From positions 9,576 through 73,575 of the forward strand of contig JBQTGV010000011.1 in assembly GCA_052390515.1 (NCBI GenBank): a stretch of 64,000 bases of DNA, written 5' to 3'. The position numbers and the translations under genes are program-made. The notes under the pieces are model-generated. The model saw nothing but the letters and a program-made list of their open reading frames with translations, made no database searches and was not told the origin of the DNA. Of this stretch, positions 36,701-52,724 are shown piece after piece; the stretch's first letter is position 1, and each line of letters begins with the position of its first letter. The stretch is from Candidatus Eiseniibacteriota bacterium. Its GTDB lineage: Bacteria; ARS69.

Positions 36701-36845
36701 CATCTCGACGATCCTCACGACGATCCTGCTGCCCACCACAGTCTGCCTGACCGAGGACGCACTCGGTGCGATCAGCCGGTTCAGCCGGTGGCTCGCGCGC
36801 TCGTTCCGAGGAGTCGTGCTGCGCGCGCCGGCGCGGGCGAGCTGA
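33744..36845 (+). CDS. RND efflux permease (HAE1 family), second tandem paralog (MdtC-like)
   Basis: 'MTLPELAIRRPITVLMLLVSLVVIGSIALNRLPLAFLP' and full AcrB-like topology. An ATGA overlap with the preceding RND gene. Confidence 0.95.
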   Translation: MTLPELAIRRPITVLMLLVSLVVIGSIALNRLPLAFLPEGEEPQIWVVVPYPNASPKTMERSILRPIEDALGSIGGLQHMWSTCDGNEARVSLFFRWDEDMATKRVEVRERLDRVRPDLPEDVDQIHISRNWDVGRTGETILEARIASGRDLSHGYELLHTRIVKPLERIPGVASVNLDGVNPREVRVNLKLAELARYNVDVRDVMTALRENNEDRSIGELRGSDRVLMVRVDGSFGKLSDISDLVVGEGGIRLCDVADVSYEEPPLEYGRHLDGQFALGIDVAREAGANTVEISQAIKERVAQMAEDPELEGVNFLIWEDQGAEILKTMRDLRNTGIIGALLASVVLYVFLRRFSSTVFAVLSIPFSLIVACGIVWAKGGTLNTLTLLGLIVGVGMLVDNAIVVMENINRHRENGLPPRQAALIGAREVSVAVVCGTATSVIVFLPIIFNRPDEMNRYLRELGLTVTFTLIASLFVSQTLIPLAMSRFVRVKNMPPTRWMVALQDGYSNLLALTLRHRWIAPVVGLAVIGSGWYPYGKVDKNFEASEAEMFVSMNYRIDQPMSLERKEELVTRVESLLEPYRKELHVDSIYSFWSENWAMTRCYMEDGHTNEEEMNRVRQKLREVAPEIPGVRLEVQDSGRFWERNSGKRLGFRLSGPDSEVLTELALDARRRLETLDGLFDFYTTAEGGRYEVQTRIDRDLAREYGVGVTQAADVVDYTFRGRRLPRYRGHEAVEEVEMSLTLDEREDESIEQLKNLPLVQGGAEDRRAIPLATVADFAVVQGPEDIQRDNRVTGVWIGARFEEDTEEEHMARSEAVLDDIILPYGYEWDHHQFIRHEEESQTEFLITLLLALGLIFAVMAALFESMRQALSLMVSLPFAVAGAAWTLWLTGTDFDQPASVGLLLLLGIVVNNGIVMISHINHYRREGMPREAAMVRGGRERLRPVIMTALTTLLGLLPMVVQRPSLAGVYYYSMALVIMGGLIISTILTTILLPTTVCLTEDALGAISRFSRWLARSFRGVVLRAPARAS

Positions 36846-36983
36846 CGGGGCGGCACCGCTCGCTTCGTGGCGGCTCCGCTCCGCCGTCCGTGGCTCCTGG
36901 GCCGCGACGACGCTCGTGCGAACGAAGCGGAACCTGCCGCCCCCGAGCGAGGCGAGCGGAGCGAGTTCCGCGGTCCGGAAGCT

Positions 36984-37973
36984 CTAGCCGCCGATCGCCG
37001 GCGCGGCCGATCGGCCAGGCGGCACCTGACCGTACGCGCGCCACTCGTCGATCGCCGAGGCGCGGCGAACGCAGCCGATCGTGCAGCGCGCCTCGCAGCC
37101 CTTGCGCTCGAAGAACGCCCGGCGCAGGTCGTCCCTGGTGTAGTCCATGAGACGGATCCCCGGTTCCCCGCGCCGCTGGCTGCAGTAGTTCACGAAGCCG
37201 TCCTCGTCGATGTACAGATAGCGGCTTCCGGCCCGGCACTTCCACGATGACTCACCCTCGAGCAGCATCCGCCGCTCCCACCCTTCGCCGAACTGGTGGA
37301 AGAAACTCTTGCGCAGGCCCTTGCGGATCTCCTGCCAGAACCCGGCGAGGTCCGATCCGATCAGGCCCGGATCGAGCTGGCCGTTCCCGTCGTGCAGCAT
37401 CTGCACGGTCATGTAGAAGCCCATGGACTGGATCTCGGTGACCAGCAGACGCGTCTGTTCCTTGGTGCACGAACCGAGCACCGCGTTCACGTTCGTCGGG
37501 AACTTCGCGTGCTCGGCGAGCAGCGCCAGCTTCGGTTTCAACACGGACCAGGACTTCTGCGACGTCTCGTTCGGCTCGAGGTTGTCGATCGAGATCTGCA
37601 GCAGCGTGAGCCGGGCGTCGTTGAGCAGCTCGATGCGCTTCTTCGTCAGGCAGTAGCCGTTGGTGATCGACGTGCAGATCATGCCTCGCCCGACCGCATG
37701 AGCGATGATCTCGTGCACCTTCGGATGCATCAGCGGCTCGCCGCCGGTGAGCGTGAGCACCAGCGTGCCCAAGTCGGCGAGCCGGTCGAGGCGCGCCTTC
37801 AGCTCGTCCAGGGGAACGGGCGCCGAGACGTGGTCGTACTCGTTGCAGTACCCGCAGGACAGGTTGCAGCGCCGCGTGACCACGAACTGCACGTGCGACG
37901 GCGTGACGTACGGGCGAAGGATGACGCGTGCCGCGCGGGCCAGCGCTCCGGGAAGTGGTTTGGGAACGAGCAT
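36984..37973 (-). CDS. Radical SAM enzyme with a C-terminal SPASM/twitch-like Cys cluster
   Basis: 'VTRRCNLSCGYCNE' is the CxxxCxxC radical-SAM cluster and 'LTGGEPLMHP' is the SAM-binding GGE motif. The C-terminal 'CRAGSRYLYIDEDGFVNYC...GCEARCTIGC' is an auxiliary Fe-S cluster Cys pattern. Start at internal Met 'MLVPKPL'; the 190-aa upstream extension is low complexity and rejected. Coordinates are accurate to about 1 nt. Confidence 0.8.
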   Translation of the reverse strand: MLVPKPLPGALARAARVILRPYVTPSHVQFVVTRRCNLSCGYCNEYDHVSAPVPLDELKARLDRLADLGTLVLTLTGGEPLMHPKVHEIIAHAVGRGMICTSITNGYCLTKKRIELLNDARLTLLQISIDNLEPNETSQKSWSVLKPKLALLAEHAKFPTNVNAVLGSCTKEQTRLLVTEIQSMGFYMTVQMLHDGNGQLDPGLIGSDLAGFWQEIRKGLRKSFFHQFGEGWERRMLLEGESSWKCRAGSRYLYIDEDGFVNYCSQRRGEPGIRLMDYTRDDLRRAFFERKGCEARCTIGCVRRASAIDEWRAYGQVPPGRSAAPAIGG

Positions 37974-38011
37974 CGGCGGATTGTGCTTCGGATCCGTCGA
38001 AGGGGCAAGCG

Positions 38012-39016
38012 CTACCGGAGCGAAAGTTCGAGGCGCCCGCGCGCGGCGAGCGCCTGGGTGGCGATACAGCGCCAGGAGAGAGCGGCGGAACGCGTAGCCG
38101 AGCGGCTGCGCGCGCGGGACAACGCGAGGGCCGGAACGGCCAGGCGAAGCACGTCCGCCGGAGTTCCGCACTCCGTGAGACAGTCCTCCAGAAAGCCGAG
38201 GACCAGCGTGCGAAGCGGTCCGTCGTCGAGGAAGGCGCGGCGGAATCCGCCGGCCGCGTCGTCGCCGCGGAGCTGGCCGAGGCGGACTGCGATGTCGAGC
38301 GCGAACGCGACCGGATCGATCCACGAGAACTGGTGCAGCCGCCCGTGCTCCCAGTCGACAGCGCCGAGCTCGCCCGAGTCCCCGAGGAGATTCCCGGCGC
38401 CGAGGTCCCCGTGCGAAACGGCGGCGAGGCACGTCGTCCCGGCGCGCGCTTCGATGGCGGCGATGAGCGTCTCGATGTCGCGGGTCTTCGCGCCGCCGCC
38501 CTCGCTCTCCAGCGCCGCCAGCGCGGCGCGCAGCACCGGTTCCCACATCGCGGCCTCGCCGGCCTCGAAGAGGCCCGTCGCGCGCCAGATCTGTCCGAGC
38601 CAGTCCCTCGCGTCGTCGAACAGACGGCGGGCGTCGTCGACGTCGGCGAAGGCGCGAAGTTGGTCGGCGAGCGGCTCGCCCGGGATCACGGACTGCACCG
38701 TGAAGAGCCGGTCCCCGTCGTCTTCGAGCAGGAGCGCCCGCGGGAAGCGCCGCCCGGCCAGCCGCGGCGCGGCCTCCTCGAGCTCGCGGAGGAGCCGGTG
38801 CTCCCTCTCCGCGCGGGCACGCGCGGCTCCGCTGCGCGGGAACTTGGCGATCAGCGCCGGATGCGAATCACCGGAGGGAAAGACGCGGACCAGGGCGCGG
38901 CCGGCCCGCCCCATTCCGTCGTCGCAGAGGTGGAAGGAGAGATCTCGCGGCGCCGCTCCGGGGATTCCGAGCTCCCGCCAGCGGCCGAGAACGGCGCCAC
39001 GCAAGCGGTCGATCAT
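38012..39016 (-). CDS. Phosphotransferase-enzyme-family (APH/choline-kinase-like) small-molecule kinase
   Basis: 'VSHGDLGAGNLL' is the Brenner HxDxxxxN catalytic motif and 'VDWEH' is a DxE/D-like motif. Start chosen at 'MIDRLRGAV', giving an ATGA overlap with the upstream methyltransferase. Confidence 0.65.
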   Translation of the reverse strand: MIDRLRGAVLGRWRELGIPGAAPRDLSFHLCDDGMGRAGRALVRVFPSGDSHPALIAKFPRSGAARARAEREHRLLRELEEAAPRLAGRRFPRALLLEDDGDRLFTVQSVIPGEPLADQLRAFADVDDARRLFDDARDWLGQIWRATGLFEAGEAAMWEPVLRAALAALESEGGGAKTRDIETLIAAIEARAGTTCLAAVSHGDLGAGNLLGDSGELGAVDWEHGRLHQFSWIDPVAFALDIAVRLGQLRGDDAAGGFRRAFLDDGPLRTLVLGFLEDCLTECGTPADVLRLAVPALALSRARSRSATRSAALSWRCIATQALAARGRLELSLR

Positions 39017-39876
39017 GCGCCCTTCCCCGAGCGCGCGACGACCGCGAAGTGAGGCACGAGCCGCGCGGCGATTCCACCGCGCAAGCGGTGTCCGAGACGC
39101 GAGCGTTTCGCCAGCCACCAGTCCAGCGCCTCCGGGCCGTCGAGCGGCAGCAGCTCACGCGGCTGATGCGCATCCGGAAACGCGGCGTGGAAGCGGAGCG
39201 CCTCGAATCCGGCCGTGCGGAAGATCTTCGCCCATCCGTCGAGTCCATGAGGGGCGTGACGCGGGGCGGCGTGCTCCCGGCGGCCGGGGAAGAGCGCGCC
39301 GAACCGGTTCGCGACCGGGGCGAAGAGCGCGCCCCCGGGCAGGAGCTTCCGGCGGATGCGGCGGAGCCGCGCGATCTGCTCGCCGTTCGTGCCGCCGAGG
39401 AGGTCTCCGCCGAGCACCGCAAGGTCGAACTTCCCGTCGCGGAAGGGGATCGCTTCGGCGCGGGAGACGACCGCCACGATGTTCGCGCCGCCGATCGACC
39501 GCGCCCGCTGGAGACTGCGCTCCACCACCCCGACCTGCTCGGCTTCGCCGGCGATGACGCGCGTCACGCCTCCCGCGACCGACCCGATGACCAGGACGCG
39601 CACTGCATCGGCGGGAAGCAGGAAGCGCCAATCCGCGTGCGCGTCGTCGTCCTCTTCGGCTGCGTCTCCGCCGGCGGCGTTTGCTGCGGCGTCGGCCGCT
39701 GCTGCGGGCGGTTCCTCCGACGGCACGGCGAAGAGGGGCACTCCGTCCCGGCACTCCCACTCGTCGCCGCAACGCAGGCAAGCGATGCCGGCCTCGTCAC
39801 GGTGGAGCAGGGTGCCGTCGTCGGGGCAGACGAGGTCGGTGGCGCGAGGCAGGGCGGCGAGCTCGGCGAGGGCCAT
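39013..39876 (-). CDS. Methyltransferase with an N-terminal Trm112-like zinc ribbon
   Basis: 'LVCPDDGTLLHRDEAGIACLRCGDEWECRDGVPLF' is a Trm112/DUF343 ribbon. It is followed by an acidic linker and an MT-like core 'VRVLVIGSVAGG'. A GGAGG Shine-Dalgarno sequence lies upstream of the ATG at 39876. Confidence 0.6.
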   Translation of the reverse strand: MALAELAALPRATDLVCPDDGTLLHRDEAGIACLRCGDEWECRDGVPLFAVPSEEPPAAAADAAANAAGGDAAEEDDDAHADWRFLLPADAVRVLVIGSVAGGVTRVIAGEAEQVGVVERSLQRARSIGGANIVAVVSRAEAIPFRDGKFDLAVLGGDLLGGTNGEQIARLRRIRRKLLPGGALFAPVANRFGALFPGRREHAAPRHAPHGLDGWAKIFRTAGFEALRFHAAFPDAHQPRELLPLDGPEALDWWLAKRSRLGHRLRGGIAARLVPHFAVVARSGKGA

Positions 39877-39972
39877 GATTCCTCCGGGTCGACGCTCTTG
39901 CTTCGGCAAACGGGGCGGGCGACTTTCGTCAGGACTTGCGGGGTTTCAGCGGGATCGGCAAGCCCTGGCGGC

Positions 39973-42867
39973 TCAAGGAGTTGAGGCGACCTTCCGCCGC
40001 ACCCGGGCCAGGTCCTCGGCGGCCTGTCGCAGGATCTGGGAATCCGGGTGCCGCGCCCGGCCGGCCGCGAAGATCGAGTCCGCGCGGTCGTGCTCGGAGA
40101 GCTTCACGAGGACGTCGCCGAGCGCGAGGAATCCGTCGTGGCACGACGGATCGAGGCGAAGCGACTCGAGCGCGTCCTCGTGTGCGGGCTCGAGGTCCCG
40201 CGCCCGCGTCCGCACGCGCGCGCGCAACGCGTGGAATTCGGCGCGGCGCGGTTCGCGACGGAGCGCCTCGGAGATCGCGACCTCCGCGGCCTCGAGATCG
40301 CCGGCCTCGAGGTACAGCCGCGCGACGTTCGCCGGCGGATCGCCGTACTCGGGATCCACTTCGGCCGCGCGCCGGTACAGCGCGAGGGCCTCGGCCACGC
40401 CGCCGTGCCGCGCGCGTGCTTCTCCCCTCCCGTTGAGCGCCTGGGAGAGCACGTCGGCGACGGCGGGGTCTCCGCTTCGGAGCCGCCACGCTTCCTCGGC
40501 GGCGGCGAGGCCCGCCTCGCCCTCGCCCGCGCGGAAGGCCAGGCGCGCCTGCGACTCGAGCTCCCGCACGCGCCGTGCCGCCGGAAGCTGCGCAAGCAGA
40601 CCCTCCGGCGCGGCCGCCACGAGCTGCTCGACCCCTCCGGCCGCCGCGTGCAGCCCCGTGTACAGCTCGGGAAGCGTGTCGCGGTAAAGCAGCTTCGGCG
40701 CCTGGAACTCGAGCAGCAGGTTGTCGTCGGTGTTCGCCGCGGCTCCGCCGACGTAACGGTCCAGCGCCTCTCCGGCGAGCAAGCATCGGGATGCGAACGT
40801 CACGAGATCCGGCGTGCCGCTCTCTCGAAGCAGTCGGCGGATGTCCTCGTGCTGCGCAGCTTTCGCCAGGACGCGCTGTGCATCGATGGAGAGAGTCTCG
40901 TCGCCGGCCAGGATGACGAGGTCGCCCCAGCCGGCGCTCCACAGCGTCACCCGGGCGAAGTGCAGGCGGGCGGCGGCGAGCACGCCGCGGAGCGCCTCCG
41001 GGGAGAGTGAGTAACCTTGGAGCCAGGACGCGAAGAGCCCGCCCGGCGAAAGGCCCTCACGACACGCGGCGAAGAACTCCGCGGTGAGCAGCGACGACGC
41101 TCCCGAGACCCATACGTTCGACGGATGCGAGATCACCGCGTCGAAGGTCCGGCCGGACAGCGCGAGGTGGTTGCGTCCGTCTCCCACCACGATGCGCGCG
41201 CGCGGATCGTGCAGCAAGCCGCGATTCGACTCCTCGAACCACGCGGCACCACGCACGACCGACTCGGAGATCTCCACGCACTCCAGCGTCTCCACGCCGG
41301 GATGGCCGCCCGCGGCGGCCGCGGTGATGCCGCTGCCCAGCCCGATGACGAGGATGTCGCGGGGGGCGGGATGCAGGATGACCGGCAGCGCGCCGAGGAA
41401 CACCTGCGTGGCGTAGTCGCCGGTGTTGCTGGCCTCGGTCACGCCGTTCATCTGCATGGTGAGCTCGTGGCCGGAGCGGCGCACCGAGACCGTCGTGGTG
41501 ACGCCCTCCTCGAAGAAGACGAGCTCGGCGCGGTCCGGAGACAGCTCGTCGACGGCGAGACGGCGCATCTCCGACGCCACGGCGAAGCCGCCGCGAGTGA
41601 GCGCGGCCGGGTTCCATTCGGGCAGGAGGAGCGCGCCGGCCGCAGCCGCCGCGGCGATCCCGAGCGCGAAACGCGGCGCACCCCGTCGAACGAGCAGCAG
41701 CACGCTCGTGGCGGCAAGCAGCAGCGAGACGCAGACGATTCCGCCGCGCAGGCCGAGGAGACGGATGAGCACGAATCCGGCGCCCCAGGAACCGAGGATG
41801 GCGCCGAGGGTGTTGGCCGCGTAGAGGTCGCCGACGGTGCGCCCCGTACCCCGGGTTGCACGGTCGATGCCGATGGCGAGAGGAAGCGCCGCGCCGGACA
41901 CCAGCGTCGGCAGCAGCATGGGCAGCGCGGCGATGGCGAAGTTCACGGCGAGCCCGTCGAGCCAGGTGCCACCCGCGCGCGCCGCGAGGCGAAGGAAGAG
42001 CGCCGGCAGCCGGTCGAAGAGCGGCACCGCGGCGAGCGCCAGCAACCCGACCGCGGCGGGAGCCAGCACGAAGAGCCGTGCGGCCGAGGCCGGGCGGCGC
42101 AGGATGCGGGCGGCGAGCGCGCTGCCCCCGGCGATGCCGGCGAGGAAGGTGCTCAGCACGACGGCGAACGCGTACACGGTGGCGCCCAGCGCGAGCGACA
42201 GCGTCCGGGTCCAGAGGACCTCGAGCGCGAGCGCGGCGAAGCCGAGCACGCCGGCGGTCGCGAGGAGAGCGGGGCGCGGTACGTCGGGTCCCGGAGCGTG
42301 CACGGCGGCACCGTCCTCGTCCGGGACGGGACGCGCGGCACGGGAGAGCAGTACCGCGACGAGGCCGACGCCGAGGTTGACGCCCATGGCGAGCCGCAGC
42401 GTCCCGGAGAGGCCGAACGCCGGGAGGAGGGCGAAGCTCGCCGCGACGGTTCCGCACACGGCCCCGAGCGTGTTCGCCGCGTAGAGATGCGCGACGCGCC
42501 GCCGGCCGGTGGACGGTCCCACGTGACTGGCCAGCAGCGGGAGCGTCGCGCCGAGGAGGAACGTGGGCGGCAGCAGCACGAGGACGCCCACGGCGAAACG
42601 CACGCCGGACAGCGCCCAGAACGAGTCGGCGAGCTTCGGGTAGAGCGCGGCGTAGAGCGACTGCGCGCTGCCGAGGAGCGCGGGGACGCACGCGGCGAGG
42701 GCGGCCAGCACGATCTCGGCGATGCCGTAGGCGAGGAGCGGGTTTCGGACGCGGTGCACGACCCGTCCCGCCGCGAACCCTCCCAGGGCGAGGCCGCCCA
42801 TGAAAGCCGAGAGGACCGTGGACACGGCGAGCACGGTCGCGCCGAGCTCGTGCACGAACCAGCGCAC
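39973..42867 (-). CDS. Fused MFS-like polytopic membrane domain, spermidine-synthase-like aminopropyltransferase domain, and C-terminal TPR
   Basis: 964 aa. The N-terminal ~430 aa has about 12 TM helices (MFS-like). The centre 'ILVIGLGSGITAAAA...VETLECVEISESVV...ARIVVGDGRNHL...FDAVISH' is a SpeE-type SAM fold. The C-terminal 'EALALYRRAAEVDPEYGDPPANVARLYLEAGDLEAA' is TPR. Confidence 0.8.
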   Translation of the reverse strand: MRWFVHELGATVLAVSTVLSAFMGGLALGGFAAGRVVHRVRNPLLAYGIAEIVLAALAACVPALLGSAQSLYAALYPKLADSFWALSGVRFAVGVLVLLPPTFLLGATLPLLASHVGPSTGRRRVAHLYAANTLGAVCGTVAASFALLPAFGLSGTLRLAMGVNLGVGLVAVLLSRAARPVPDEDGAAVHAPGPDVPRPALLATAGVLGFAALALEVLWTRTLSLALGATVYAFAVVLSTFLAGIAGGSALAARILRRPASAARLFVLAPAAVGLLALAAVPLFDRLPALFLRLAARAGGTWLDGLAVNFAIAALPMLLPTLVSGAALPLAIGIDRATRGTGRTVGDLYAANTLGAILGSWGAGFVLIRLLGLRGGIVCVSLLLAATSVLLLVRRGAPRFALGIAAAAAAGALLLPEWNPAALTRGGFAVASEMRRLAVDELSPDRAELVFFEEGVTTTVSVRRSGHELTMQMNGVTEASNTGDYATQVFLGALPVILHPAPRDILVIGLGSGITAAAAGGHPGVETLECVEISESVVRGAAWFEESNRGLLHDPRARIVVGDGRNHLALSGRTFDAVISHPSNVWVSGASSLLTAEFFAACREGLSPGGLFASWLQGYSLSPEALRGVLAAARLHFARVTLWSAGWGDLVILAGDETLSIDAQRVLAKAAQHEDIRRLLRESGTPDLVTFASRCLLAGEALDRYVGGAAANTDDNLLLEFQAPKLLYRDTLPELYTGLHAAAGGVEQLVAAAPEGLLAQLPAARRVRELESQARLAFRAGEGEAGLAAAEEAWRLRSGDPAVADVLSQALNGRGEARARHGGVAEALALYRRAAEVDPEYGDPPANVARLYLEAGDLEAAEVAISEALRREPRRAEFHALRARVRTRARDLEPAHEDALESLRLDPSCHDGFLALGDVLVKLSEHDRADSIFAAGRARHPDSQILRQAAEDLARVRRKVASTP

Positions 42868-43003
42868 CCAGACGACCTGGTAGACGAGGCCGGTGGCGCC
42901 GGAGAGGAAGAACAGCAGCAGGATGACGGCCAGCGGACCACCCCCGGCGAACGGACCGGGGGATTATGCGGCTTGCCGCGTGGGGATCAACAGGTCCGGA
43001 CCG

Positions 43004-44422
43004 TCAGGGGCCTCGAAACGTGACCTCGGCGCTTCGCCGTTCCCCGGAAGCGGAGTCGGCGACCGTGATCGTCAGCGGGAACGTGCCCGCGTAGCTGCCG
43101 CGGGGCAGCCGCGCGATCATTGAAGTCGTGACGTCGGCGAGGCTCTCCACCGCGAGCCGCGGCGTGGCCAGTACCAGCTCCGGGCGCGCGTCCCCCGTGC
43201 TCTCGGCTTCGACGAAGTAGACCGCGGAGCTTTCGCCCTTGTTCTGGATGCGGAAGTTGTAGACGTTGCGGATCTCGTCCTCTTCGAGCACGTAGGGCAT
43301 GCCGCGAACCCGGAGGACGTGCACCTCGAACGAGCTGCGCTTCGCCAGCGTGAACCCGAACGCGGCCAGCCCGGCGAGCGCGGCCGCGACATAGGCGATC
43401 GTCCGCGGCCGGATCAGCTTGCGTCGGCCCTCGGAATCGAAGCCGCCTTTCGAGTCGTAACGGATGAGTCCTTTGGGCAATCCCACCTTGTCCATGATCT
43501 CGTCGCAGGCGTCGACGCAGTTCGCGCAGCCGACGCACTCCATCTGCAGGCCGTTGCGGATGTCGATCCCGGTGGGGCACACCGCCACGCAGCGGAAGCA
43601 GTCGATGCAGTCGCCGCCCTCCTCGGCCCTGCGCGAGCGCGGTTCTCCGCGGCCGGAGTCGTACCCGATGATCATCGTGTCGGCGTCGACCAGCGCGGAC
43701 TGCGCGCGGCCGTAGGGGCAGACGATCAGGCAGACCTGCTCGCGGAACCACGCGTAGTCGAAGTACAGGATTGCAGTCCAGATGACGACCCAGAGGAACG
43801 TGGTCCAGTGCTCCGCCGGGCTGCCGCCGAGCCACGCCAGCAGTTCCTTCGGCGGAACGAAGTACGCGACGAAGATGTGCGCGTTGGCGAACGCGAGCGC
43901 CACGAAGACGGCGTGCTTGACCCCCTTCCGCCAGCTCTTGTCCCAGGTCCAGGGTCCCAGGTTGCGCTTGATCCTCGTGTCCCGCGGCCCCTCGATCCGT
44001 CGTTCGATCTTCCGGTACACGCCCTCCAGGAAGACGGTCTGAGGGCACGCGTAGCCGCACCAGATTCGCCCCCAGAGGCTGGTGACGACGAACAGCGCGA
44101 AGCCCAGGCCCGACACGAGGAAGAACAGCAGGTGGAAGTCGTTGTTCGTGAAGGTGTGGCCGGCGAGGTAGGCCGCACGTCCGGGAAGGTCGATGCTCAC
44201 GAGCGGGTGACCGCCGACCTGGATCCAGGGAACGACGGCGTAGATGACGAGCAGCGCGGCGAAGACCAGGTTCTTGCGGCGCTGGAACCGGCCGCGTACG
44301 TCCGCGGGATGGAGGAAGTTCCTGCTTCCGTCCGGGTTGATCGTGTAGACCGTGTCGAGGTCGGGCAGACGCCGCTCGAGCTTGCGGGGCCTGGAGTGCC
44401 GTGGCGGCGACGTCGTACTCAT
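43004..44422 (-). CDS. ccoG: cbb3 oxidase accessory ferredoxin CcoG/FixG
   Basis: 'CGYACPQ', 'CLIVCPYGR', 'CIDCFRCVAVCPTGIDIRNG...CVGCANCVDAC' are multiple 4Fe-4S Cys motifs. Five TM helices. Start at an internal Met overlapping the ccoP stop (ATGA). The upstream 172-aa extension lies in ccoP's alternate frame and is rejected. Confidence 0.85.
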   Translation of the reverse strand: MSTTSPPRHSRPRKLERRLPDLDTVYTINPDGSRNFLHPADVRGRFQRRKNLVFAALLVIYAVVPWIQVGGHPLVSIDLPGRAAYLAGHTFTNNDFHLLFFLVSGLGFALFVVTSLWGRIWCGYACPQTVFLEGVYRKIERRIEGPRDTRIKRNLGPWTWDKSWRKGVKHAVFVALAFANAHIFVAYFVPPKELLAWLGGSPAEHWTTFLWVVIWTAILYFDYAWFREQVCLIVCPYGRAQSALVDADTMIIGYDSGRGEPRSRRAEEGGDCIDCFRCVAVCPTGIDIRNGLQMECVGCANCVDACDEIMDKVGLPKGLIRYDSKGGFDSEGRRKLIRPRTIAYVAAALAGLAAFGFTLAKRSSFEVHVLRVRGMPYVLEEDEIRNVYNFRIQNKGESSAVYFVEAESTGDARPELVLATPRLAVESLADVTTSMIARLPRGSYAGTFPLTITVADSASGERRSAEVTFRGP

Positions 44423-45012
44423 CCGGTTCCTTGCTGCGTCCATCCCGGCGCTGCGTTCCCCGCGGCGTCCATTCCCTGCGGTGCTTTCCCGGAGAGGTTC
44501 TTGTCGCGGAGCGTCAGCAGGTACGCGACGACGTCCTGGATGCGCTGCGGCCCGAGCTGGTTCATCCACGCCACCATTCCCTTGTCGGGCACGCCGTTCG
44601 TCACGGTTCGATGGATCTGCAGCGGTGAGCCGCCGTGGATCCAGTACTCGTCCGTCAGATTCGGACCGATGTCGCCGGAGGCGTCGGGCCGGTGGCAGGT
44701 CGCGCAGATCTGGCCGAACACGGCGCCACCTGCGGCGACCCTCTCCGGCACCTGCGACACGAGCAGCAGCGTCTCGTCGGAAAGCTCCTGCCCGGACATC
44801 CTGGCGAGCTGGAGCTCGGCGGCGGCTGCCATCTCCGCGGCGTACGCGTCCCGGGGGAGGTGGCCCAGGCGCCAGGTGTGGAAGAACAGCCAGTACCCGA
44901 CGGCGAAGACGATCGCGCCGTACAGCGTCCACAGCCACCAGTTGGGGAGACGGTTGTCGAACTCGTGGATCCCGTCGTACTCGTGCTCGCGGAGCTTGTC
45001 CTGATCCGCCAT
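44419..45012 (-). CDS. ccoP: cbb3 oxidase subunit III CcoP, monoheme variant
   Basis: 'EYDGIHEFDNRLPNWWLWT' is the CcoP/FixP N-terminal signature plus TM. There is a single 'CATCH' heme motif (typical CcoP is diheme). Confidence 0.8.
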   Translation of the reverse strand: MADQDKLREHEYDGIHEFDNRLPNWWLWTLYGAIVFAVGYWLFFHTWRLGHLPRDAYAAEMAAAAELQLARMSGQELSDETLLLVSQVPERVAAGGAVFGQICATCHRPDASGDIGPNLTDEYWIHGGSPLQIHRTVTNGVPDKGMVAWMNQLGPQRIQDVVAYLLTLRDKNLSGKAPQGMDAAGNAAPGWTQQGTG

Positions 45013-45013
45013 G

Positions 45014-45196
45014 TCAGACCTCCTCCCGCCCGTCCGCTTCGAGAGGCAGACGCGCCACGTGGTCCATACGCTCGTGCCGGCGGAGACCTCGGATCTCGCG
45101 GACCAGCACCACGGTGAACGCGACGAGGAAGATCGCGAGCGCGACGAGCGGCCACGCCAGCAGATCGCTCTTCGCGAACCAGCTCTCGAACATCAT
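45014..45196 (-). CDS. ccoQ: cbb3 oxidase small subunit CcoQ/FixQ-like (60 aa)
   Basis: 'MMFESWFAKSDLLAWPLVALAIFLVAFTVVLV' is a single-TM peptide in CcoQ position. The ATGA overlap with the ccoNO stop. Confidence 0.6.
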   Translation of the reverse strand: MMFESWFAKSDLLAWPLVALAIFLVAFTVVLVREIRGLRRHERMDHVARLPLEADGREEV

Positions 45197-47742
45197 CGAC
45201 CCTCCGGGAGCTGGATCGCGGCTGCGGACGCGAGCGGTTCGCCGGCGTCCGGCGGGGCGGCCTGCGCGGAGGCCGCGGACGGTGCCGCAGCCGGTACCGG
45301 CTCGGCGCCCGTCGGCTGGGGTCCCCGCCCGAGGCGCTGCAGGTACGCGATCAGAGCCACGAGCCGGCTGCGCTCGGAGACCGTGACCGCGTTGGCCTCC
45401 AAGTCCCGGCGGATCAGCGCCGCCTGCGAGAGCGCGGTTCGTTCCGCCGCCATGATCTCCTCGGCCGAATAGGGGACGCCGAGCCGCCGCATCGCGTCGA
45501 GCTTGCCGGCCGTCTTCGAGTAGTCCACCTCGGTGTCGTCGAGCCACGAGTACGCCGGCATCAGCGATCCAGGAGACGTGGAGCGCGGATCCAGCAGGTG
45601 CTGGTAGTGCCACAGGTTCGGCAGCTTCCCGCCAACCCGATGCAGGTCCGGACCGGTGCGTTTCGATCCCCACTGGAACGGATGATCGTAGACGTACTCC
45701 TCGGCGCGGGAGAAGTCGCCGTAGCGCAGCGTTTCGTGGCGGAACGGCCGGATCATCTGGCTGTGGCAGACGTAGCAGCCCTCGCTCACGTAGACGTCGC
45801 GGCCCTCGAGCTCCAGCGGGCTGTACGGCAGCTGCACGCGCTTGGGATCCGGGGTCGACTCGAATCCGGCCGGGCCGCGCATTCCTTCGGTGGATCCGCC
45901 TCGCGTGACCGCGTCGCGGAGCATCGAGCCGCCGGACTCGCTCGCCTCGGGCGCGGTCGCGGGGGCGGCCTCGACGGCGGGAGTGAGCGGGATCCGCTGC
46001 TTCAGCACCACGGAGGGGATCAGCTCCGCCACGCCGCCCGCCAGGACGGCGAAGAGCACCAGTACGGTGAAGGCCAGCGGCCTGCCCTCCAAGAGCGCGT
46101 GCCACGTTCGCCCTTCACGACGCCAGATCCCGCCGCTCACGATCGCCGCGACGACCACCATGGTCGCGAGCGTCAGGACGACCGGGCTCATCACCGGCGA
46201 GGAGATGCCCAGGATCACCGCCACCGCGACGACCAGCGCCGACAGGACGGCGGGTCCGCCCGCGAGGACTCTCCAACCGGAGACCGCCGGCCGGGCGGCG
46301 CGCGCCTTCACCGGCACGGTGACCCGTCCGTCGACGGGATGACCCTGACGCACCGTGGCGAAGATGTTGACGGCGAAGAGCACGAACCCGACGAGGTACG
46401 CCGACCCGCCCACCAGTCGCATCATGTACATGGCCCGCTGCGCGAGCAGACCCTCGACGAAGTCCGGGTATTTGAGGAAACCGTCCGCGTCGAGCGCGCG
46501 CCAGTAGAGTCCCTGGCCGATTCCCGAGACCCACATCGACGTGATGTATAGCAGGATGCCGAACGTCCCGATCCAGAAGTGCGCGTCCGCCAAGCGCAAC
46601 GACCACAGCTTCGTGCCCCAGAGTCGCGGGACGAGCCAGTACAGCATTCCGGCGGCCATGAAGCCGTTCCAGCCCAGGGCACCGCCGTGCACGTGCCCGA
46701 TGATCCAGTCCGTGTAGTGGGCCAGTGCGCTCACGCCCTTGATCGAGAGCAGAGGTCCCTCGAAGGTCGACATGCCGTAGAACGTCACCGCCATGATGAA
46801 GAACTTGATCACCGGATCGGTGCGCAGCTTGTCCCACGCGCCACGAAGCGTGAGCAGGCCGTTGAGCATGCCGCCCCAGGACGGCGCCCAGAGCATCAGG
46901 CTGAAGACCATGCCGAGCGTCTGCGCCCAGTCCGGCAGCGCGGTGTAGAGCAGGTGATGAGGTCCGGCCCAGATGTACACGAACACCAGGCCCCAGAAGT
47001 GCACCACGGAGAGCCGGTACGAGTACACGGGGCGGTCGGCGGCCTTGGGCAGGAAGTAGTACATGATGCCCAGGATCGGCGTGGTCAGGAAGAACCCGAC
47101 CGCGTTGTGTCCGTACCACCACTGCACGATCGCGTCCTGCACGCCGGCGAACAGGGGATAGCTGTGGGTCAGCGACGTCGGCAGGTGCAGGCTGTTCACG
47201 ATGTGCAGCACCGCGATCGTCACGATCGTGGCGATGTAGAACCACAGCGCTACGTAGAGGTTCTTCTCGTTGCGGACTGCCAGCGTCCAGAAGAAGTTCA
47301 CGCCGAACGCGACCCACACCACGGCCACGGCGATGTCGATCGGCCAGATGAGCTCCGCGTACTCCTTCCCCTGCGTGAGGCCGAGCGGCAGGGTGAGCGC
47401 GGCAGAGACGATGATGGCCTGCCAGCCCCAGAAGTTGAAGCGGCTCAGGAAGTCCGAGGCCATGCGGGTCTTCGCCAGCCGCTGCGTCGAGTAGTAGATC
47501 CCGGCGAACATCATGTTGCCGACGAAGGCGAAGATCGCCGCGTTGGTGTGCAGCGGGCGAAGGCGGCTGAAGGTCAGCCACGGCGTGCCCAGGTTCGCCT
47601 GCCACCACACGAGCTGGGAGGCGATGACGGCGCCCAGCAGCAGCGCGACGAGCGCCCAGATGACCGTGGCGAGCGAGAACGCTCGTACGATCCAGTCGTC
47701 GTAGGTGATCTGCCGCGTGGGAGCGGTGCGGCTATCGGTCAT
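45193..47742 (-). CDS. ccoNO: Fused cbb3-type cytochrome c oxidase subunits I+II (CcoN-CcoO fusion)
   Basis: The N-terminal ~470 aa is heme-copper oxidase subunit I ('WWYGHNAVGFF', 'HHLLYT', 'HYTDWIIGHVHGGALGW'). The C-terminal ~220 aa is CcoO ('CYVCHSQMIRPFRHETLRYGDFSRAEEYVYDHPFQWGSKRTGPDL') after a TM and a Pro/Ala-rich linker. Confidence 0.9.
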   Translation of the reverse strand: MTDSRTAPTRQITYDDWIVRAFSLATVIWALVALLLGAVIASQLVWWQANLGTPWLTFSRLRPLHTNAAIFAFVGNMMFAGIYYSTQRLAKTRMASDFLSRFNFWGWQAIIVSAALTLPLGLTQGKEYAELIWPIDIAVAVVWVAFGVNFFWTLAVRNEKNLYVALWFYIATIVTIAVLHIVNSLHLPTSLTHSYPLFAGVQDAIVQWWYGHNAVGFFLTTPILGIMYYFLPKAADRPVYSYRLSVVHFWGLVFVYIWAGPHHLLYTALPDWAQTLGMVFSLMLWAPSWGGMLNGLLTLRGAWDKLRTDPVIKFFIMAVTFYGMSTFEGPLLSIKGVSALAHYTDWIIGHVHGGALGWNGFMAAGMLYWLVPRLWGTKLWSLRLADAHFWIGTFGILLYITSMWVSGIGQGLYWRALDADGFLKYPDFVEGLLAQRAMYMMRLVGGSAYLVGFVLFAVNIFATVRQGHPVDGRVTVPVKARAARPAVSGWRVLAGGPAVLSALVVAVAVILGISSPVMSPVVLTLATMVVVAAIVSGGIWRREGRTWHALLEGRPLAFTVLVLFAVLAGGVAELIPSVVLKQRIPLTPAVEAAPATAPEASESGGSMLRDAVTRGGSTEGMRGPAGFESTPDPKRVQLPYSPLELEGRDVYVSEGCYVCHSQMIRPFRHETLRYGDFSRAEEYVYDHPFQWGSKRTGPDLHRVGGKLPNLWHYQHLLDPRSTSPGSLMPAYSWLDDTEVDYSKTAGKLDAMRRLGVPYSAEEIMAAERTALSQAALIRRDLEANAVTVSERSRLVALIAYLQRLGRGPQPTGAEPVPAAAPSAASAQAAPPDAGEPLASAAAIQLPEGR

Positions 47743-51837: not shown

Positions 51838-52293
51838 CTACGGCCAGCGCTTGGCCAGCTGCTCGATCGCCGCGTCCAGCGCGGCCGCGGACTCCAGGCT
51901 GGAACCCTGCTTCGTCTTCATGGCCGCGCGCATCACCTGATGGTGATCCGCCAGCGCGGCCAGGTAGTCGGCGTGCCCCTCGGCTCCCGCGGCGACGTCC
52001 TTCAGCTTCTGCGTCAGGAAGTACACGGACACGACCTCGATGATGTGCGAAGCGTGCTCTTCCTTCGTCATGATCCAGCGCGTGGCCTGATTCACCGACT
52101 CGGCGTCACGCTTGCCGGCCAGATCGTTGATGTTGGTGATGGCCTTGGAGATGGTCGCTGCGTCCTCGCGGAGCTGGACGAGGCGCGCGGCGTCGTCGTA
52201 GATGCCGCAGGGGACCTGGCAGTGGGCATGTACGCCGGCGGCGGCGAGCACCGGTAGCGCGAACGCGACGAGCCAGGCTGTGGCCTTCTTCAT
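51838..52293 (-). CDS. sodN: Nickel-containing superoxide dismutase (Ni-SOD) with a Sec-type signal peptide
   Basis: 'HCQVPCGIYDD' matches the Ni-hook (His1-Cys2-x-x-Pro-Cys6-Gly-x-Tyr9). It is preceded by 'MKKATAWLVAFALPVLAAAGVHA', with a GGAGG Shine-Dalgarno sequence upstream. The four-helix-bundle remainder is about 125 aa. The long upstream ORF extension is rejected. Confidence 0.8.
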   Translation of the reverse strand: MKKATAWLVAFALPVLAAAGVHAHCQVPCGIYDDAARLVQLREDAATISKAITNINDLAGKRDAESVNQATRWIMTKEEHASHIIEVVSVYFLTQKLKDVAAGAEGHADYLAALADHHQVMRAAMKTKQGSSLESAAALDAAIEQLAKRWP

Positions 52294-52539
52294 GATCGGC
52301 TCCTCCATCGAGAGTCGGGTGCAACGTCTTTGAGGCGGCATTCTTTCCGGCCGCGGTGGGGCTGTCAACACGGCGAAGTTTTCGCTGTTCCGCCGAGGGT
52401 GGGATGTGCTTATCATTCGCTCGGGCCCGCGGTGATCCACGAGTACGGAGGCCGCGGCGGCCGGCGCAGGCGGGGCGACCTGCGCGGCCGGGCGGGTTGG
52501 GTCCCGCCGTGATGGGCGCGCCCGGAAGGAGGTGATCCA

Positions 52540-52584
52540 GTGGGTTGTACCAAATACGGCTCGGCAGAGGTGACGTCCCCTTAG
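52540..52584 (+). other. 14-codon ORF (MGCTKYGSAEVTSP, GTG start) preceded by a perfect AAGGAGGTGATCC Shine-Dalgarno sequence; candidate small peptide or leader inside a structured intergenic region
   Basis: A 13-nt exact complement of the 16S 3' end, 7 nt upstream of GTG. It lies in a 430-nt non-coding gap with reduced GC and is followed by stable hairpins. Confidence 0.25.
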
Positions 52585-52668
52585 GGGGCCCTTCCTGAGC
52601 GTAGGCGGCTCCACGGATGGACACCCCTCTTCGGGGGGTACCCAACGTCGCGGATGCCCAGACCGAAC

Positions 52669-52706: not shown

Positions 52707-52724
52707 GGAGGCGGTTCACGGAAC

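What the first reader, a model, noticed from the sequence alone, without database searches (positions are those of the whole stretch)
39973..42867. A 964-aa fusion protein: transporter-like membrane domain, spermidine-synthase fold and TPR
The SpeE-like SAM-binding motifs ('VIGLGSGITA', 'ECVEISESVV', 'VVGDGRNHL') sit between an N-terminal polytopic membrane domain and a C-terminal TPR array. This suggests a membrane-embedded aminopropyl/alkyl transferase whose substrate is delivered or exported through its own membrane domain. The biochemical role of this family is, to my knowledge, unknown. Its position at the head of the tailoring-enzyme operon gives a testable context.
Basis: partly seen in the sequence, partly recalled or inferred. 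Interest (0 to 1): 0.5.

Follow-up and report, generated by a model that had tools for sequence, protein, structure and literature searches.

The report
Membrane-fused spermidine-synthase look-alike enzyme
This gene encodes an ordinary member of a very large, already named but functionally untested bacterial family, in which a transporter-type membrane domain is fused to a spermidine-synthase-shaped domain that lacks the residues needed to make spermidine; it probably transfers something else, most likely a methyl group, at the outer face of the cell membrane.

Summary
A 964-codon ORF lies on the minus strand at 39973-42867. It encodes an MFS-fold membrane domain, a SpeE-fold domain with the three quoted motifs, and about five TPR repeats.

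The identical protein is already in NCBI as "fused MFS/spermidine synthase" (NF037959), from a Ca. Eiseniibacteriota MAG. The family has about 8,600 50%-identity clusters.

The residues that define aminopropyl transfer are replaced: GxGDG becomes GLGSG, D-S-T-D-P becomes H-P-S-N-V, and Tyr becomes Thr. The motif-I Asp is absent in all 313 relatives checked. The adenosyl-binding residues are invariant, and new family motifs are conserved (DGR, S-x-P-S-N-x-W, TDDxxxLE).

So this is not a spermidine synthase. It most likely uses SAM for methyl or other alkyl transfer, as the SpeE-fold N-terminal methyltransferases METTL13-C and fungal NHMT do.

Positive-inside analysis gives N-in, 13 TM, C-out. 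The catalytic and TPR domains are therefore predicted to be periplasmic, which would give the MFS domain a donor- or acceptor-supply role. That role is inferred, not shown.

The "tailoring operon" context is lineage-specific and not conserved. The annotated start clips a conserved TM1, and a CTG start at 42933 is likely. Function remains untested.

The parts
39973..42933 (-). Whole gene with the proposed CTG start (986 aa); the annotated and first-reader version is 39973..42867 (964 aa, GTG start).
   Evidence: ORF and translation. 100% identical to the NCBI protein P0001, 'fused MFS/spermidine synthase', Ca. Eiseniibacteriota. The upstream in-frame sequence encodes conserved TM1. The extended AF2 model has pLDDT 95.1.
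41680..42933 (-). MFS-fold membrane domain: 12 TM helices made of two homologous 6-TM halves. Each half carries Y(E/Q)xxWxR, PTxLxGAxxP and LYAxNTxGA motifs.
41617..41679 (-). Thirteenth transmembrane helix (APRFALGIAAAAAAGALLLPE), predicted to carry the chain from the cytoplasm to the periplasm.
   Evidence: It follows the K/R-rich loop RRGAPR. The uncharged run has median length 20 residues, is at least 17 residues in 93% of 98 relatives, and has mean Kyte-Doolittle hydropathy 2.0. The positive-inside pattern supports the orientation. It is helical in both AF2 models.
40633..41550 (-). SpeE-fold (spermidine-synthase-like) domain, including the N-terminal beta domain and a family-specific C-terminal extension.
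41329..41343 (-). Motif I, G-L-G-S-G (residues 509-513). The Asp that binds the aminopropyl amine of dcSAM in SpeE is Ser512 here.
   Evidence: Alignment to 3o4f, 1inl and 1iy9. In the family this position is S/T/G/C/A and never D/E: 116 homologues, 57 genome loci, 140 diverse representatives.
41173..41181 (-). D563-G564-R565. The SpdS-type 'DG' adenine-binding motif is followed by a family-invariant Arg that SpeE lacks.
   Evidence: D563 is present in 140/140 and R565 in 139/140. The role of the DG motif is taken from PMC6109062.
41110..41130 (-). Post-II (post-beta4) loop S-H-P-S-N-V-W (residues 580-586), replacing the SpeE motif D-S-T-D-P. The family consensus is S-E-P-S-N-P-W.
   Evidence: Alignment. 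S580, P582, S583, N584 and W586 are nearly invariant; position 581 varies by clade (E/Q/H/L/D/A).
40696..40731 (-). Family-specific motif T-D-D-N-L-L-L-E-F-Q-A-P (residues 713-724), of unknown role.
   Evidence: D714 is present in 138/140, D715 in 118/140 and E720 in 138/140. The motif is invariant in alignments A1 and A2.
39982..40599 (-). C-terminal TPR array: 11 helices, about 5 repeats plus a cap.
42963..42990 (-). Promoter-like site TTGATC-16-CATAAT in the ccoG-target spacer. The in-frame TAA that closes the upstream reading frame lies inside the CATAAT box.
   Evidence: It is the only consensus match in 36800-45200, where 0.1 is expected. The CATAAT is conserved in L081. This is a consensus match only, not proof of function.
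43004..44422 (-). Context only: ccoG (cbb3 oxidase accessory protein), immediately upstream.
   Evidence: TIGR02745 422.9 bits against a cut-off of 316.7.
36984..39876 (-). Context only: class-I methyltransferase (39013-39876), APH-like kinase (38012-39016) and radical-SAM protein (36984-37973). They are co-directional and tightly packed, 96 nt downstream of the target.
   Evidence: Pfam and NCBIfam. Start codons. The adjacency is conserved only in relatives of at least 79% identity.

Best explanation
SHOWN. The gene encodes a typical member of the NCBIfam family NF037959, 'fused MFS/spermidine synthase'. The domain order is a 12-helix MFS-fold domain made of two duplicated halves, a 13th transmembrane helix, a complete SpeE-fold domain, and about five TPR repeats.

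The SpeE-fold domain keeps the residues that hold the adenosyl part of the cofactor: the glycine-rich motif I, Glu532 for the ribose, and Asp563-Gly564 for the adenine. It lacks every residue that defines aminopropyl transfer to a diamine. The dcSAM-amine-binding Asp is Ser512, the two Post-II Asp are His581 and Asn584, and the Tyr is Thr487. The loss of the motif-I Asp holds across the whole family.

INFERRED.
(1) It is not a spermidine or polyamine synthase. It most likely binds SAM itself and transfers a methyl group, or less likely another SAM-derived alkyl group. The two characterised SpeE-fold enzymes that lack this Asp, human METTL13 C-domain and fungal 7TM-NHMT, are both protein N-terminal methyltransferases.
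(2) Topology is N-in, 13 TM, C-out, so the catalytic and TPR domains sit on the periplasmic face, docked on the MFS domain.
(3) The periplasm has no known SAM pool, and the MFS domain is strongly conserved in polar intramembrane residues. The MFS domain is therefore not a mere anchor. It would supply the donor (SAM in, SAH out) or present an amphipathic acceptor to the fused enzyme.
(4) The TPR array would recruit a macromolecular acceptor, such as an exported protein or an envelope polymer.

The acceptor is unknown. The gene appears to stand alone, possibly with its own promoter. It is not a conserved partner of the adjacent cbb3-oxidase genes or of the downstream MTase/kinase/radical-SAM genes.
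For: - Family membership: NF037959 96.2 bits against a cut-off of 40. The identical NCBI protein carries that name.
- Family size: 8,639 50%-identity clusters at E <= 1e-30.
- Active site: residue-by-residue alignment to E. coli, T. maritima and B. subtilis SpeE.
- Family statistics: motif-I position S/T/G/C/A in 116 + 57 + 140 sequences, never D/E. E532 and D563 are present in 140/140, R565 in 139/140, D714 and E720 in 138/140.
- Precedents: the missing acidic residue in GxG(D/E)G was used to reclassify fungal AN4663 as a methyltransferase, confirmed genetically and by heterologous methylation (PMC10349129). METTL13 MT13-C is SpdS-like with the same DG motif and is an N-terminal methyltransferase (PMC6109062). 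The Pseudomonas sp. CH267 'SpeE2' (TM domain plus SpeE-like domain, with the three catalytic/substrate-binding Asp replaced by Thr, Glu and Pro) was judged unlikely to be a spermidine synthase (PMC7298707).
- Topology: K+R per loop alternates about 3-5 and about 1 across 93 sequences, and the N-terminus is positive. TM13 is uncharged, with a median of 20 residues. It follows TM12 after a 3-residue turn in the models. The periplasmic loops L3-4 and L9-10 are unusually long and constant in length. One relative carries a C-terminal arylsulfotransferase domain with no intervening TM helix. That enzyme class is typically periplasmic (my own knowledge).
- No conserved operon partner.
Against: - No experiment exists for any member that I could find.
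- A SAM-dependent domain in the bacterial periplasm has no established cofactor supply, which could mean the topology prediction or the cofactor assignment is wrong.
- I could not inspect model coordinates, so I did not check the position of the catalytic domain relative to the membrane or whether the active site lies over the MFS cavity.
- Position 581 varies (E/Q/H/L/D/A), so there is no conserved general base.
- The arylsulfotransferase-fusion argument rests on my own knowledge of where that enzyme class is located.
Confidence: 0.5

Rival explanations
1. It is a genuine polyamine aminopropyltransferase, a membrane-tethered SpeE paralogue that makes or exports a polyamine, with a divergent active site.
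For: - It matches the SpeE HMMs weakly.
- JGI names relatives 'spermidine synthase'.
- Most relatives have Glu or Asp at the catalytic-Asp position, and one clade has D-P-S-D.
Against: - The Asp that binds the dcSAM aminopropyl amine is absent in all 313 relatives examined.
- Tyr becomes Thr. In this protein both Post-II acids are gone (His581, Asn584).
- Scores are far below the SpeE equivalog cut-offs: 64.5 against 249.55, and 78.3 against 260.
- The same substitutions were taken as excluding spermidine synthase activity in NHMT and in CH267 SpeE2.
- dcSAM would be as unavailable in the periplasm as SAM.
Confidence: 0.1
2. The topology call is wrong at TM13. The SpeE-like and TPR domains are cytoplasmic, and the protein is a membrane-anchored cytoplasmic SAM-dependent transferase. 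Its product or substrate, a lipid or small molecule, is handled by the MFS domain. The fused lysophospholipid transporter-acyltransferase LplT-Aas works this way (my own knowledge).
For: - SAM is cytoplasmic, and MFS termini are normally cytoplasmic.
- TM13 is short (17 residues in the query) and Ala/Gly-rich.
- TPR domains also occur in the cytoplasm, for example the OGT matches.
Against: - The loop before TM13 is strongly positive (3.5 K/R on average), and TM13 is fully apolar and at least 17 residues in 93% of relatives.
- TM13 follows TM12 after a 3-residue turn.
- The periplasmic loops are long and of conserved length.
- One relative has a C-terminal arylsulfotransferase fusion.
Confidence: 0.2
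3. The SpeE-like domain is a catalytically dead ligand-binding or scaffold module (a pseudoenzyme). It regulates the MFS transporter or organises periplasmic partners through the TPR array.
For: - The canonical catalytic residues are lost.
- The former catalytic position is variable.
- No cofactor supply is known in the periplasm.
Against: - The cofactor-pocket residues are nearly invariant, as are additional polar residues: G509, E532, D563, R565, D576, S580, P582, S583, N584, W586, D714 and E720. This holds across about 8,600 clusters.
- That level of conservation is what a working active site would show, although a dedicated binding site would also conserve them.
Confidence: 0.15
4. It is a cbb3-oxidase biogenesis factor: a CcoA-like MFS copper importer or TPR assembly factor, as suggested by its position directly after ccoNO-ccoP-ccoG.
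For: - The adjacency to the cco cluster is conserved in relatives of 79% identity.
- CcoA is an MFS protein needed for cbb3 assembly (PMC4725013, seen).
- Another relative sits after ATP synthase and nrfHA.
Against: - None of 80 genome loci of the family has cco genes nearby.
- The context is unrelated at 53-60% identity.
- The spacer contains a promoter-like site.
- I noticed no conserved Met/His metal motif among the nearly invariant positions listed for the membrane domain, but this was not tested directly.
- This model gives no role to a conserved SAM-type pocket.
Confidence: 0.03

Closest known systems
NCBIfam NF037959, 'fused MFS/spermidine synthase' (subfamily model)
   Same: The protein scores 96.2 bits against a cut-off of 40. 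The identical protein is already named this way in NCBI. The domain order, MFS-type membrane domain then SpeE-like domain, is the same, and many members also carry C-terminal TPR repeats.
   Different: Nothing substantive; it is a regular member. Its clade has His instead of the consensus Glu at position 581 and Val instead of Pro at position 585. The family name implies an activity that the active site does not support.
Canonical spermidine synthase and polyamine aminopropyltransferases (SpeE; TIGR00417, PRK00811; PDB 3o4f, 1inl, 1uir)
   Different: The Asp of GxGDG, both Post-II Asp and the substrate Tyr are all replaced. HMM scores are far below the cut-offs. The domain is fused to 13 TM helices and TPR repeats, and is predicted to lie outside the cytoplasm.
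Fungal NHMT (A. nidulans AN4663), a 7-TM methyltransferase that methylates His1 of secreted LPMOs (PMC10349129)
   Same: A polytopic membrane domain is followed by a spermidine-synthase-annotated domain whose motif-I acid is replaced by a neutral residue. The enzyme sits in the ER and methylates secreted, signal-peptide-bearing LPMOs (PMC10349129). That its catalytic domain faces the ER lumen, the equivalent of the periplasmic side, is my inference; the paper does not state it. [quoted passage not shown]
   Different: NHMT has 7 TM helices, not 12+1, and no TPR array. Its authors found the 7TM domain only in Pezizomycotina by BLAST. The acceptor here is unknown.
Human METTL13 C-terminal domain (MT13-C; PDB 5WCJ), the eEF1A N-terminal methyltransferase (PMC6109062)
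   Different: METTL13-C is soluble and cytosolic. It keeps Asp575 and Asp577 in Post II, whereas this protein has His and Asn. It lacks the SpeE N-terminal beta domain. It is much more distant than the true SpeE enzymes.
Pseudomonas sp. CH267/UW4 'SpeE2' of the ISS locus (PMC7298707)
   Same: An N-terminal transmembrane region is followed by a SpeE-like domain, in a protein of ~847 aa. The motif-I Asp is Thr, the catalytic Asp is Glu and the second Asp is replaced; this matches the family consensus T/S ... E ... here. The authors concluded it is unlikely to be a spermidine synthase.
   Different: No TPR array is reported. It lies in an 11-gene locus with Bat-like genes. The phenotype, induced systemic susceptibility in plants, does not reveal a biochemical function. 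I did not test whether it belongs to the same family, because its sequence was not retrievable.
Membrane-domain-plus-periplasmic-transferase enzymes that bring a cytoplasmic donor across the membrane (AT3-SGNH O-acetyltransferases such as OafA/OafB), and the MFS-type Golgi SAM transporters of plants
   Same: This is a conceptual analogy only. A polytopic domain is coupled to an extracytoplasmic transferase because the donor exists only in the cytoplasm. MFS proteins can carry SAM into a lumen for methyltransferases. The plant transporters are cited in PMC10349129, reference 40; their assignment to the MFS is my own knowledge. The OafA/OafB comparison is my own knowledge.
   Different: There is no sequence or fold relationship with AT3 or SGNH domains. 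SAM transport by this MFS domain is entirely hypothetical.

Membership tests
NF037959 fused MFS/spermidine synthase | HMM score at or above the curated cut-off | tested here: met
   96.2 bits against a cut-off of 40, E = 1.9e-27.
NF037959 fused MFS/spermidine synthase | N-terminal MFS-type polytopic domain | tested here: met
NF037959 fused MFS/spermidine synthase | C-terminal spermidine-synthase-like (PF01564) domain | tested here: met
Spermidine synthase / polyamine aminopropyltransferase (TIGR00417, PRK00811, EC 2.5.1.16-type) | Equivalog HMM score above the cut-off | tested here: not met
   TIGR00417 64.5 against 249.55; PRK00811 78.3 against 260; PRK03612 109.3 against 472.
Spermidine synthase / polyamine aminopropyltransferase | Acidic residue in GxG(D/E)G that binds the aminopropyl amine of dcSAM and excludes SAM | tested here: not met
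   Ser512. Never D/E in 116, 57 and 140 relatives.
Spermidine synthase / polyamine aminopropyltransferase | Post-II Asp-x-x-Asp (human D173/D176) for amine deprotonation and binding | tested here: not met
   His581 and Asn584. The family consensus is E/Q at 581 and N at 584.
Spermidine synthase / polyamine aminopropyltransferase | Substrate-binding Tyr (T. maritima Y76, human Y79) | tested here: not met
   Thr487. This position is Thr in 123 of 140 relatives.
Spermidine synthase / polyamine aminopropyltransferase | SpeE fold with N-terminal beta domain and adenosyl-binding residues (ribose Glu, DG motif) | tested here: met
Spermidine synthase / polyamine aminopropyltransferase | Aminopropyl transfer from dcSAM to a polyamine acceptor | not testable with these tools
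   Needs delta-speE complementation or an in vitro assay.
Major facilitator superfamily transporter (Pfam MFS_1) | Sequence match above the Pfam gathering score | tested here: not met
   16.8 bits against 33.4 for this protein. Relative P0115 passes with 38.4 bits.
Major facilitator superfamily transporter (Pfam MFS_1) | 12-TM fold of two 6-TM repeats with cytoplasmic N-terminus and central loop | tested here: met
Major facilitator superfamily transporter (Pfam MFS_1) | Demonstrated solute transport | not testable with these tools
   Needs a proteoliposome or whole-cell transport assay.
SpdS-fold protein N-terminal methyltransferases (METTL13 MT13-C, fungal NHMT) | SpdS-like seven-beta-strand fold with a DG motif and a non-acidic residue at the motif-I position | tested here: met
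   The criterion is the one used in PMC10349129.
SpdS-fold protein N-terminal methyltransferases (METTL13 MT13-C, fungal NHMT) | Post-II acidic residues that position the substrate alpha-amine (METTL13 D575/D577) | tested here: not met
   His581 and Asn584 in this protein; E/Q and N in the family.
SpdS-fold protein N-terminal methyltransferases (METTL13 MT13-C, fungal NHMT) | Homology of the membrane domain to the NHMT 7TM domain | not tested
   The NHMT sequence and model were not available, and the AFDB library was not on the machine.
SpdS-fold protein N-terminal methyltransferases (METTL13 MT13-C, fungal NHMT) | SAM-dependent methylation of a protein N-terminus | not testable with these tools
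   Needs [3H]-SAM assays or methyl-proteomics.
TPR repeat proteins | TPR profile matches above the gathering score and a helical-repeat fold | tested here: met

The most novel reading that the evidence does not exclude
The family is an extracytoplasmic SAM-dependent transferase with a built-in cofactor conduit. The MFS domain passes SAM from the cytoplasm directly into a catalytic domain docked on its periplasmic face and takes SAH back. The TPR array captures exported proteins or envelope polymers, which are then methylated outside the cytoplasm. This would be a bacterial counterpart of fungal ER-resident NHMT. It would also be the first SAM-dependent enzyme that I know of to work in the bacterial periplasm.
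Probability: 0.2. Interest if true: 0.8.

Novelty: new member of a known kind. Interest (0 to 1): 0.42.

Why it matters
There are three reasons.

1. Annotation. Thousands of these proteins are labelled "spermidine synthase" (JGI) or "fused MFS/spermidine synthase" (NCBI). The active-site analysis shows they should not be counted as polyamine-biosynthesis genes in metabolic reconstructions of MAGs. The relatives retrieved here came from many phyla, including Acidobacteriota, Gemmatimonadota, Planctomycetota, NC10, Nitrospirota, Myxococcota and Eiseniibacteriota.

2. Scale. The family has about 8,600 clusters at 50% identity, usually no operon partner, and often several paralogues per genome. 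It is one of the larger bacterial membrane-enzyme families for which I found no assigned reaction in the literature I could search.

3. Mechanism. If the predicted outward-facing topology is right, a SAM-type pocket sits where no SAM pool is known. That would imply a new solution, cofactor channelling through the fused transporter domain. It would open the question of which envelope proteins or polymers are alkylated outside the cytoplasm.

The specific gene in this window is an ordinary member of the family. The interest lies in the family, not in this locus.

Tried and rejected
- **Literature.** Searches for 'fused MFS' with spermidine synthase, membrane-bound spermidine synthase, spermidine synthase-like with membrane, MFS/TPR fusion, speE2 and Rv2601 found no biochemical study of the family. 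The 2024 survey of bacterial aminopropyltransferases (PMC11107197) does not cover membrane-fused forms. Its 'SpeE2' (PA4774, 349 aa, a thermospermine synthase) is a different protein from the 847-aa CH267 SpeE2.
- **Guilt by association.** I compared the window's neighbours by tblastn with 80 genome loci of the family, and found none shared. All-against-all clustering of flanking ORFs gave only promiscuous regulators, ABC ATPases and kinases. Six look-ups of closer relatives showed the context kept only at 79% identity or above. A reverse test from the radical-SAM gene found 80 loci, none with the target, the MTase or the APH-like gene.
- **cbb3/CcoA-like role.** Considered because of the adjacency and the MFS fold. 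Rejected for lack of conserved synteny. I also noticed no Met/His metal motif among the nearly invariant membrane-domain positions, but this was not tested directly.
- **Model organisms.** I tried to identify cultured organisms among the TPR-less relatives; all were uncultured or unnamed.
- **Structure limits.** The AFDB fold search, intended for eukaryotic or NHMT-like relatives, was unavailable. Model coordinates are not exposed, so I could not check the membrane side of the catalytic domain or the path between the MFS cavity and the active site. A whole-length profile search of the PDB was swamped by TPR proteins and found no solved family member.
- **RNA scans.** Rfam and tRNA scans of the window found nothing.
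- **Terminators.** No terminator-like site lies between the target and its neighbours, so co-transcription with either flank cannot be excluded.

Full report
**1. Observation**

The ORF 39973..42867 is real but lies on the minus strand. It has 964 codons, a GTG as the first canonical start, and GC3 of 0.90 in a window of about 70% GC.

Pfam finds Spermine_synth at residues 490-634 (E = 1.2e-12). It also finds TPR_19 and TPR_2 above their gathering scores, and a weak MFS_1 match. NCBIfam places the protein in NF037959, 'fused MFS/spermidine synthase', at 96.2 bits against a cut-off of 40. All true SpeE equivalog models are far below their cut-offs.

A protein of identical sequence is already in NCBI under that family name, from a Candidatus Eiseniibacteriota MAG.

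**2. Structure**

- the C-terminus is a TPR array resembling OGT, PilF and PilW.

The membrane domain is an internal duplication. The N-half aligns to the C-half at 35% identity over 167 residues (E = 3e-17). Each half carries the same conserved motifs: Y(E/Q)xxWxR, PTxLxGAxxP and LYAxNTxGA.

**3. Start codon**

The family consensus has about 30 more N-terminal residues than the annotated protein. In the exhaustive HMMER search nearly all hits begin 30-45 residues before query residue 8.

The missing helix is encoded in frame just upstream (…PLAVILLLFFLSGATGLVYQVVW|VRW…), but no ATG, GTG or TTG precedes it. The 79%-identical relative L081 has the same layout. In both, the reading frame is closed by a TAA that lies inside a CATAAT box, followed by GGGGGT-N6-CTG. 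In L085 a CTG start would give (M)KRTPAF…, matching the TTG-started MKKTPAV… of P0012.

The upstream segment aligns to TM7 in the internal repeat. In a second AF2 model of the CTG-extended protein it forms TM1 at pLDDT 97-98, and the overall pLDDT rises to 95.1. I conclude the gene probably starts at the CTG at 42933, giving 986 aa.

A sigma-70-like TTGATC-16-CATAAT site at 42990-42963 is the only such match in 8.4 kb. This hints at an own promoter but is only a consensus match.

**4. Active site**

Residue-by-residue alignments to E. coli, T. maritima and B. subtilis SpeE show what is kept and what is lost.

Kept: the glycine-rich motif I, the ribose-binding Glu (E532), the adenine-binding Asp-Gly (D563-G564), and the Gln of the Y-Q/H-E region.

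Lost:
- the Asp of GxGDG becomes Ser512;
- the Post-II D-S-T-D-P becomes H581-P-S-N584-V;
- the substrate Tyr becomes Thr487.

These are the residues used in the literature to define aminopropyltransferases (PMC7298707; PMC10349129; PMC6109062).

The motif-I Asp is missing throughout the family. The position reads:
- S87/T17/G7/C4/A1 in 116 homologues;
- S46/T8/C3 in 57 independently retrieved genome loci;
- S123/A6/G5/T4/C2 in 140 diverse 50%-cluster representatives.

At the same time E532, D563 and D576 are present in 140/140. R565 (139/140), S580, P582, S583, N584 and W586 are nearly invariant, as is a C-terminal T-D-D-x3-L-E-F-x-A-P motif (D714 and E720 in 138/140).

Position 581, the former catalytic Asp, varies by clade: E, Q, H, L, D or A. 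This clade has His, and one clade keeps D-P-S-D.

The conservation pattern argues for a changed chemistry rather than a dead domain.

**5. Precedents**

Two characterised SpeE-fold enzymes that lack the motif-I acid are protein N-terminal methyltransferases that use SAM.
- Human METTL13 C-domain. Its structure is closest to SpdS and shares the DG motif (PMC6109062).
- Fungal NHMT (AN4663). It is annotated as a spermidine synthase and has a 7-TM domain required for activity. It resides in the ER and methylates His1 of secreted LPMOs (PMC10349129).

A Pseudomonas protein called SpeE2 (~847 aa, TM domain plus SpeE-like domain) has the three catalytic/substrate-binding Asp replaced by Thr, Glu and Pro. 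It is needed for a plant-immunity phenotype, and its authors judged it unlikely to be a spermidine synthase (PMC7298707). I could not retrieve its sequence to test whether it belongs to this family.

**6. Topology**

Hydropathy gives 13 hydrophobic segments, counting the upstream-encoded TM1. Across 93 sequences the loops alternate cleanly. L2-3, L4-5, L6-7, L8-9, L10-11 and L12-13 carry 2.5-4.8 K+R on average. L1-2, L3-4, L5-6, L7-8, L9-10 and L11-12 carry 0.5-1.7. The N-terminal tail is positive.

This matches the universal MFS topology, with both ends of the 12-TM core in the cytoplasm. The 13th helix then takes the chain out.
- Its preceding loop has 3.5 K/R on average.
- It is an uncharged run with a median of 20 residues, at least 17 residues in 93% of 98 relatives, and mean hydropathy 2.0.
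- In both models it follows TM12 after a three-residue turn.

The SpeE-like and TPR domains are therefore predicted to be periplasmic. Two weaker points agree. The periplasmic loops L3-4 and L9-10 are long (21-23 residues) and constant in length. A 60%-identical relative carries a C-terminal arylsulfotransferase domain with no intervening TM helix. That enzyme class is typically periplasmic (my own knowledge).

I could not check the geometry directly because model coordinates are not exposed.

**7. Genomic context**

On the minus strand the order is:
- DsbD_2-type protein;
- CcoI-type P-type ATPase;
- fused CcoN-CcoO;
- CcoP;
- CcoG (TIGR02745, 423 bits);
- a 70-136 nt spacer;
- the target;
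- a 96 nt spacer;
- class-I methyltransferase (287 aa);
- APH-like kinase;
- radical-SAM protein.

RND pump genes on the other strand follow.

This order is kept in relatives of 79% identity. It is lost at 60%, 55%, 53% and 49% identity. It is absent from all 80 genome loci of more distant relatives, where no specific recurrent neighbour exists at all. Conversely, 80 metagenomic loci holding homologues of the radical-SAM gene never contain the target, the methyltransferase or the kinase.

The 'tailoring operon' is therefore a lineage-specific juxtaposition. It is not a context that informs function. The family behaves as a stand-alone gene, often with paralogues in one genome (L010 and L023; two adjacent copies in L083).

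**8. Family size and literature**

A filter-only HMMER scan of 1.84 billion cluster representatives, using residues 1-740 (no TPR), finds 8,639 clusters at E <= 1e-30. Hits come from many phyla. I found no paper assigning a reaction to any member.

**9. Interpretation**

Shown:
- family membership;
- three-domain architecture;
- MFS duplication;
- retention of adenosyl-binding residues;
- loss of the aminopropyltransferase-defining residues;
- lack of conserved synteny.

Inferred, with my estimated probabilities:
- not a polyamine synthase, about 0.85;
- C-terminal domains periplasmic, about 0.65;
- SAM-dependent methyl or other alkyl transfer, about 0.4-0.5;
- MFS domain supplies the donor or acceptor rather than merely anchoring, about 0.4;
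- TPR array recruits a macromolecular acceptor, plausible but untested.

The main tension is that no SAM supply is known in the periplasm. Either the fused MFS domain solves this, which is the novel reading, or the topology or cofactor assignment is wrong. The rival explanations cover those cases.

**10. Verdict**

The finding is real and correctly described at the domain level. It concerns an ordinary member of an already named and very common family. The aminopropyltransferase reading and the operon context are not supported. The remaining interest lies in the family's unknown chemistry and its predicted outward-facing SAM-type domain.

Noticed in passing
window 42868-42966 (minus strand): The annotated GTG start clips a conserved first transmembrane helix. 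The in-frame upstream sequence has no ATG, GTG or TTG, but has GGGGGT-N6-CTG (CTG at 42933). The same layout occurs in L081 and L085. Gene callers truncated P0001, P0002, P0004, P0024 and P0025 in the same way. This suggests CTG initiation in this Eiseniibacteriota clade.
   Followed up: yes
window 42963-42990 (minus strand): A sigma-70-like TTGATC-16-CATAAT site lies in the ccoG-target spacer. It is the only such match in 8.4 kb, where 0.1 is expected. The CATAAT contains the TAA that closes the upstream frame and is conserved in L081.
   Followed up: partly
window 45193-47742 (minus strand): CcoN (COX1) and CcoO (FixO) of the cbb3 oxidase are encoded as one 849-aa fused ORF. The same fusion (838 aa) is present in relative L081. 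Small ccoQ- and ccoS-sized ORFs flank it in L081.
   Followed up: no
window 36984-39876 (minus strand): The methyltransferase, APH-like kinase and radical-SAM genes are tightly packed; the first two overlap by 4 nt. The radical-SAM protein has at least 591 relatives in soil and peat metagenomes. None of the 80 inspected has the other two genes beside it. No NCBIfam equivalog matches any of the three, so the trio's function is unknown.
   Followed up: partly
P0005 (L084 4194-8483) and P0028: Relatives of 60% identity carry an extra C-terminal arylsulfotransferase (PF05935/PF14269) beta-propeller after the TPR array, with no transmembrane helix in between.
   Followed up: partly
L083 1503-4061 (minus strand), beside P0010: A second, TPR-less paralogue (852 aa) lies about 4 kb from the TPR-bearing copy. 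It keeps GLGSG but has a different Post-II loop (SSDSKLNPHY) and lacks the Arg after DG. It appears to be a divergent subfamily.
   Followed up: partly
P0084, P0096, P0104, P0116, P0118, P0120 (alignment): One clade of the family has Thr in motif I but keeps two Asp in Post II (S-D-P-S-D-V-W), like the D-x-x-D of canonical SpeE. It may be an intermediate or ancestral state.
   Followed up: no
L085 (P0025, 49% identity): This relative lies directly after the ATP synthase operon and nrfH-nrfA (cytochrome c nitrite reductase). It is a second case where a family member follows respiratory membrane-complex genes, although the wider family shows no such association.
   Followed up: no
window 51838-52719 (minus strand): A nickel superoxide dismutase domain occupies only residues 163-291 of a 293-aa ORF. 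Either the start is over-called or there is a long N-terminal extension.
   Followed up: no
L081 9646-9873 (opposite strand), versus window 42868-43003: Relatives L081 and the P0003 contig have a 75-76-aa ORF with a LapA_dom (PF06305) hit between ccoG and the target, on the opposite strand, in a ~326 nt spacer. The window's spacer is only 136 nt, which looks too short to hold it; I did not check directly whether the ORF is present.
   Followed up: no
database annotations of relatives: JGI/IMG names most relatives simply 'spermidine synthase'. Given the active-site analysis, this probably inflates the inferred polyamine-biosynthesis capacity in metagenome-derived metabolic reconstructions.
   Followed up: partly
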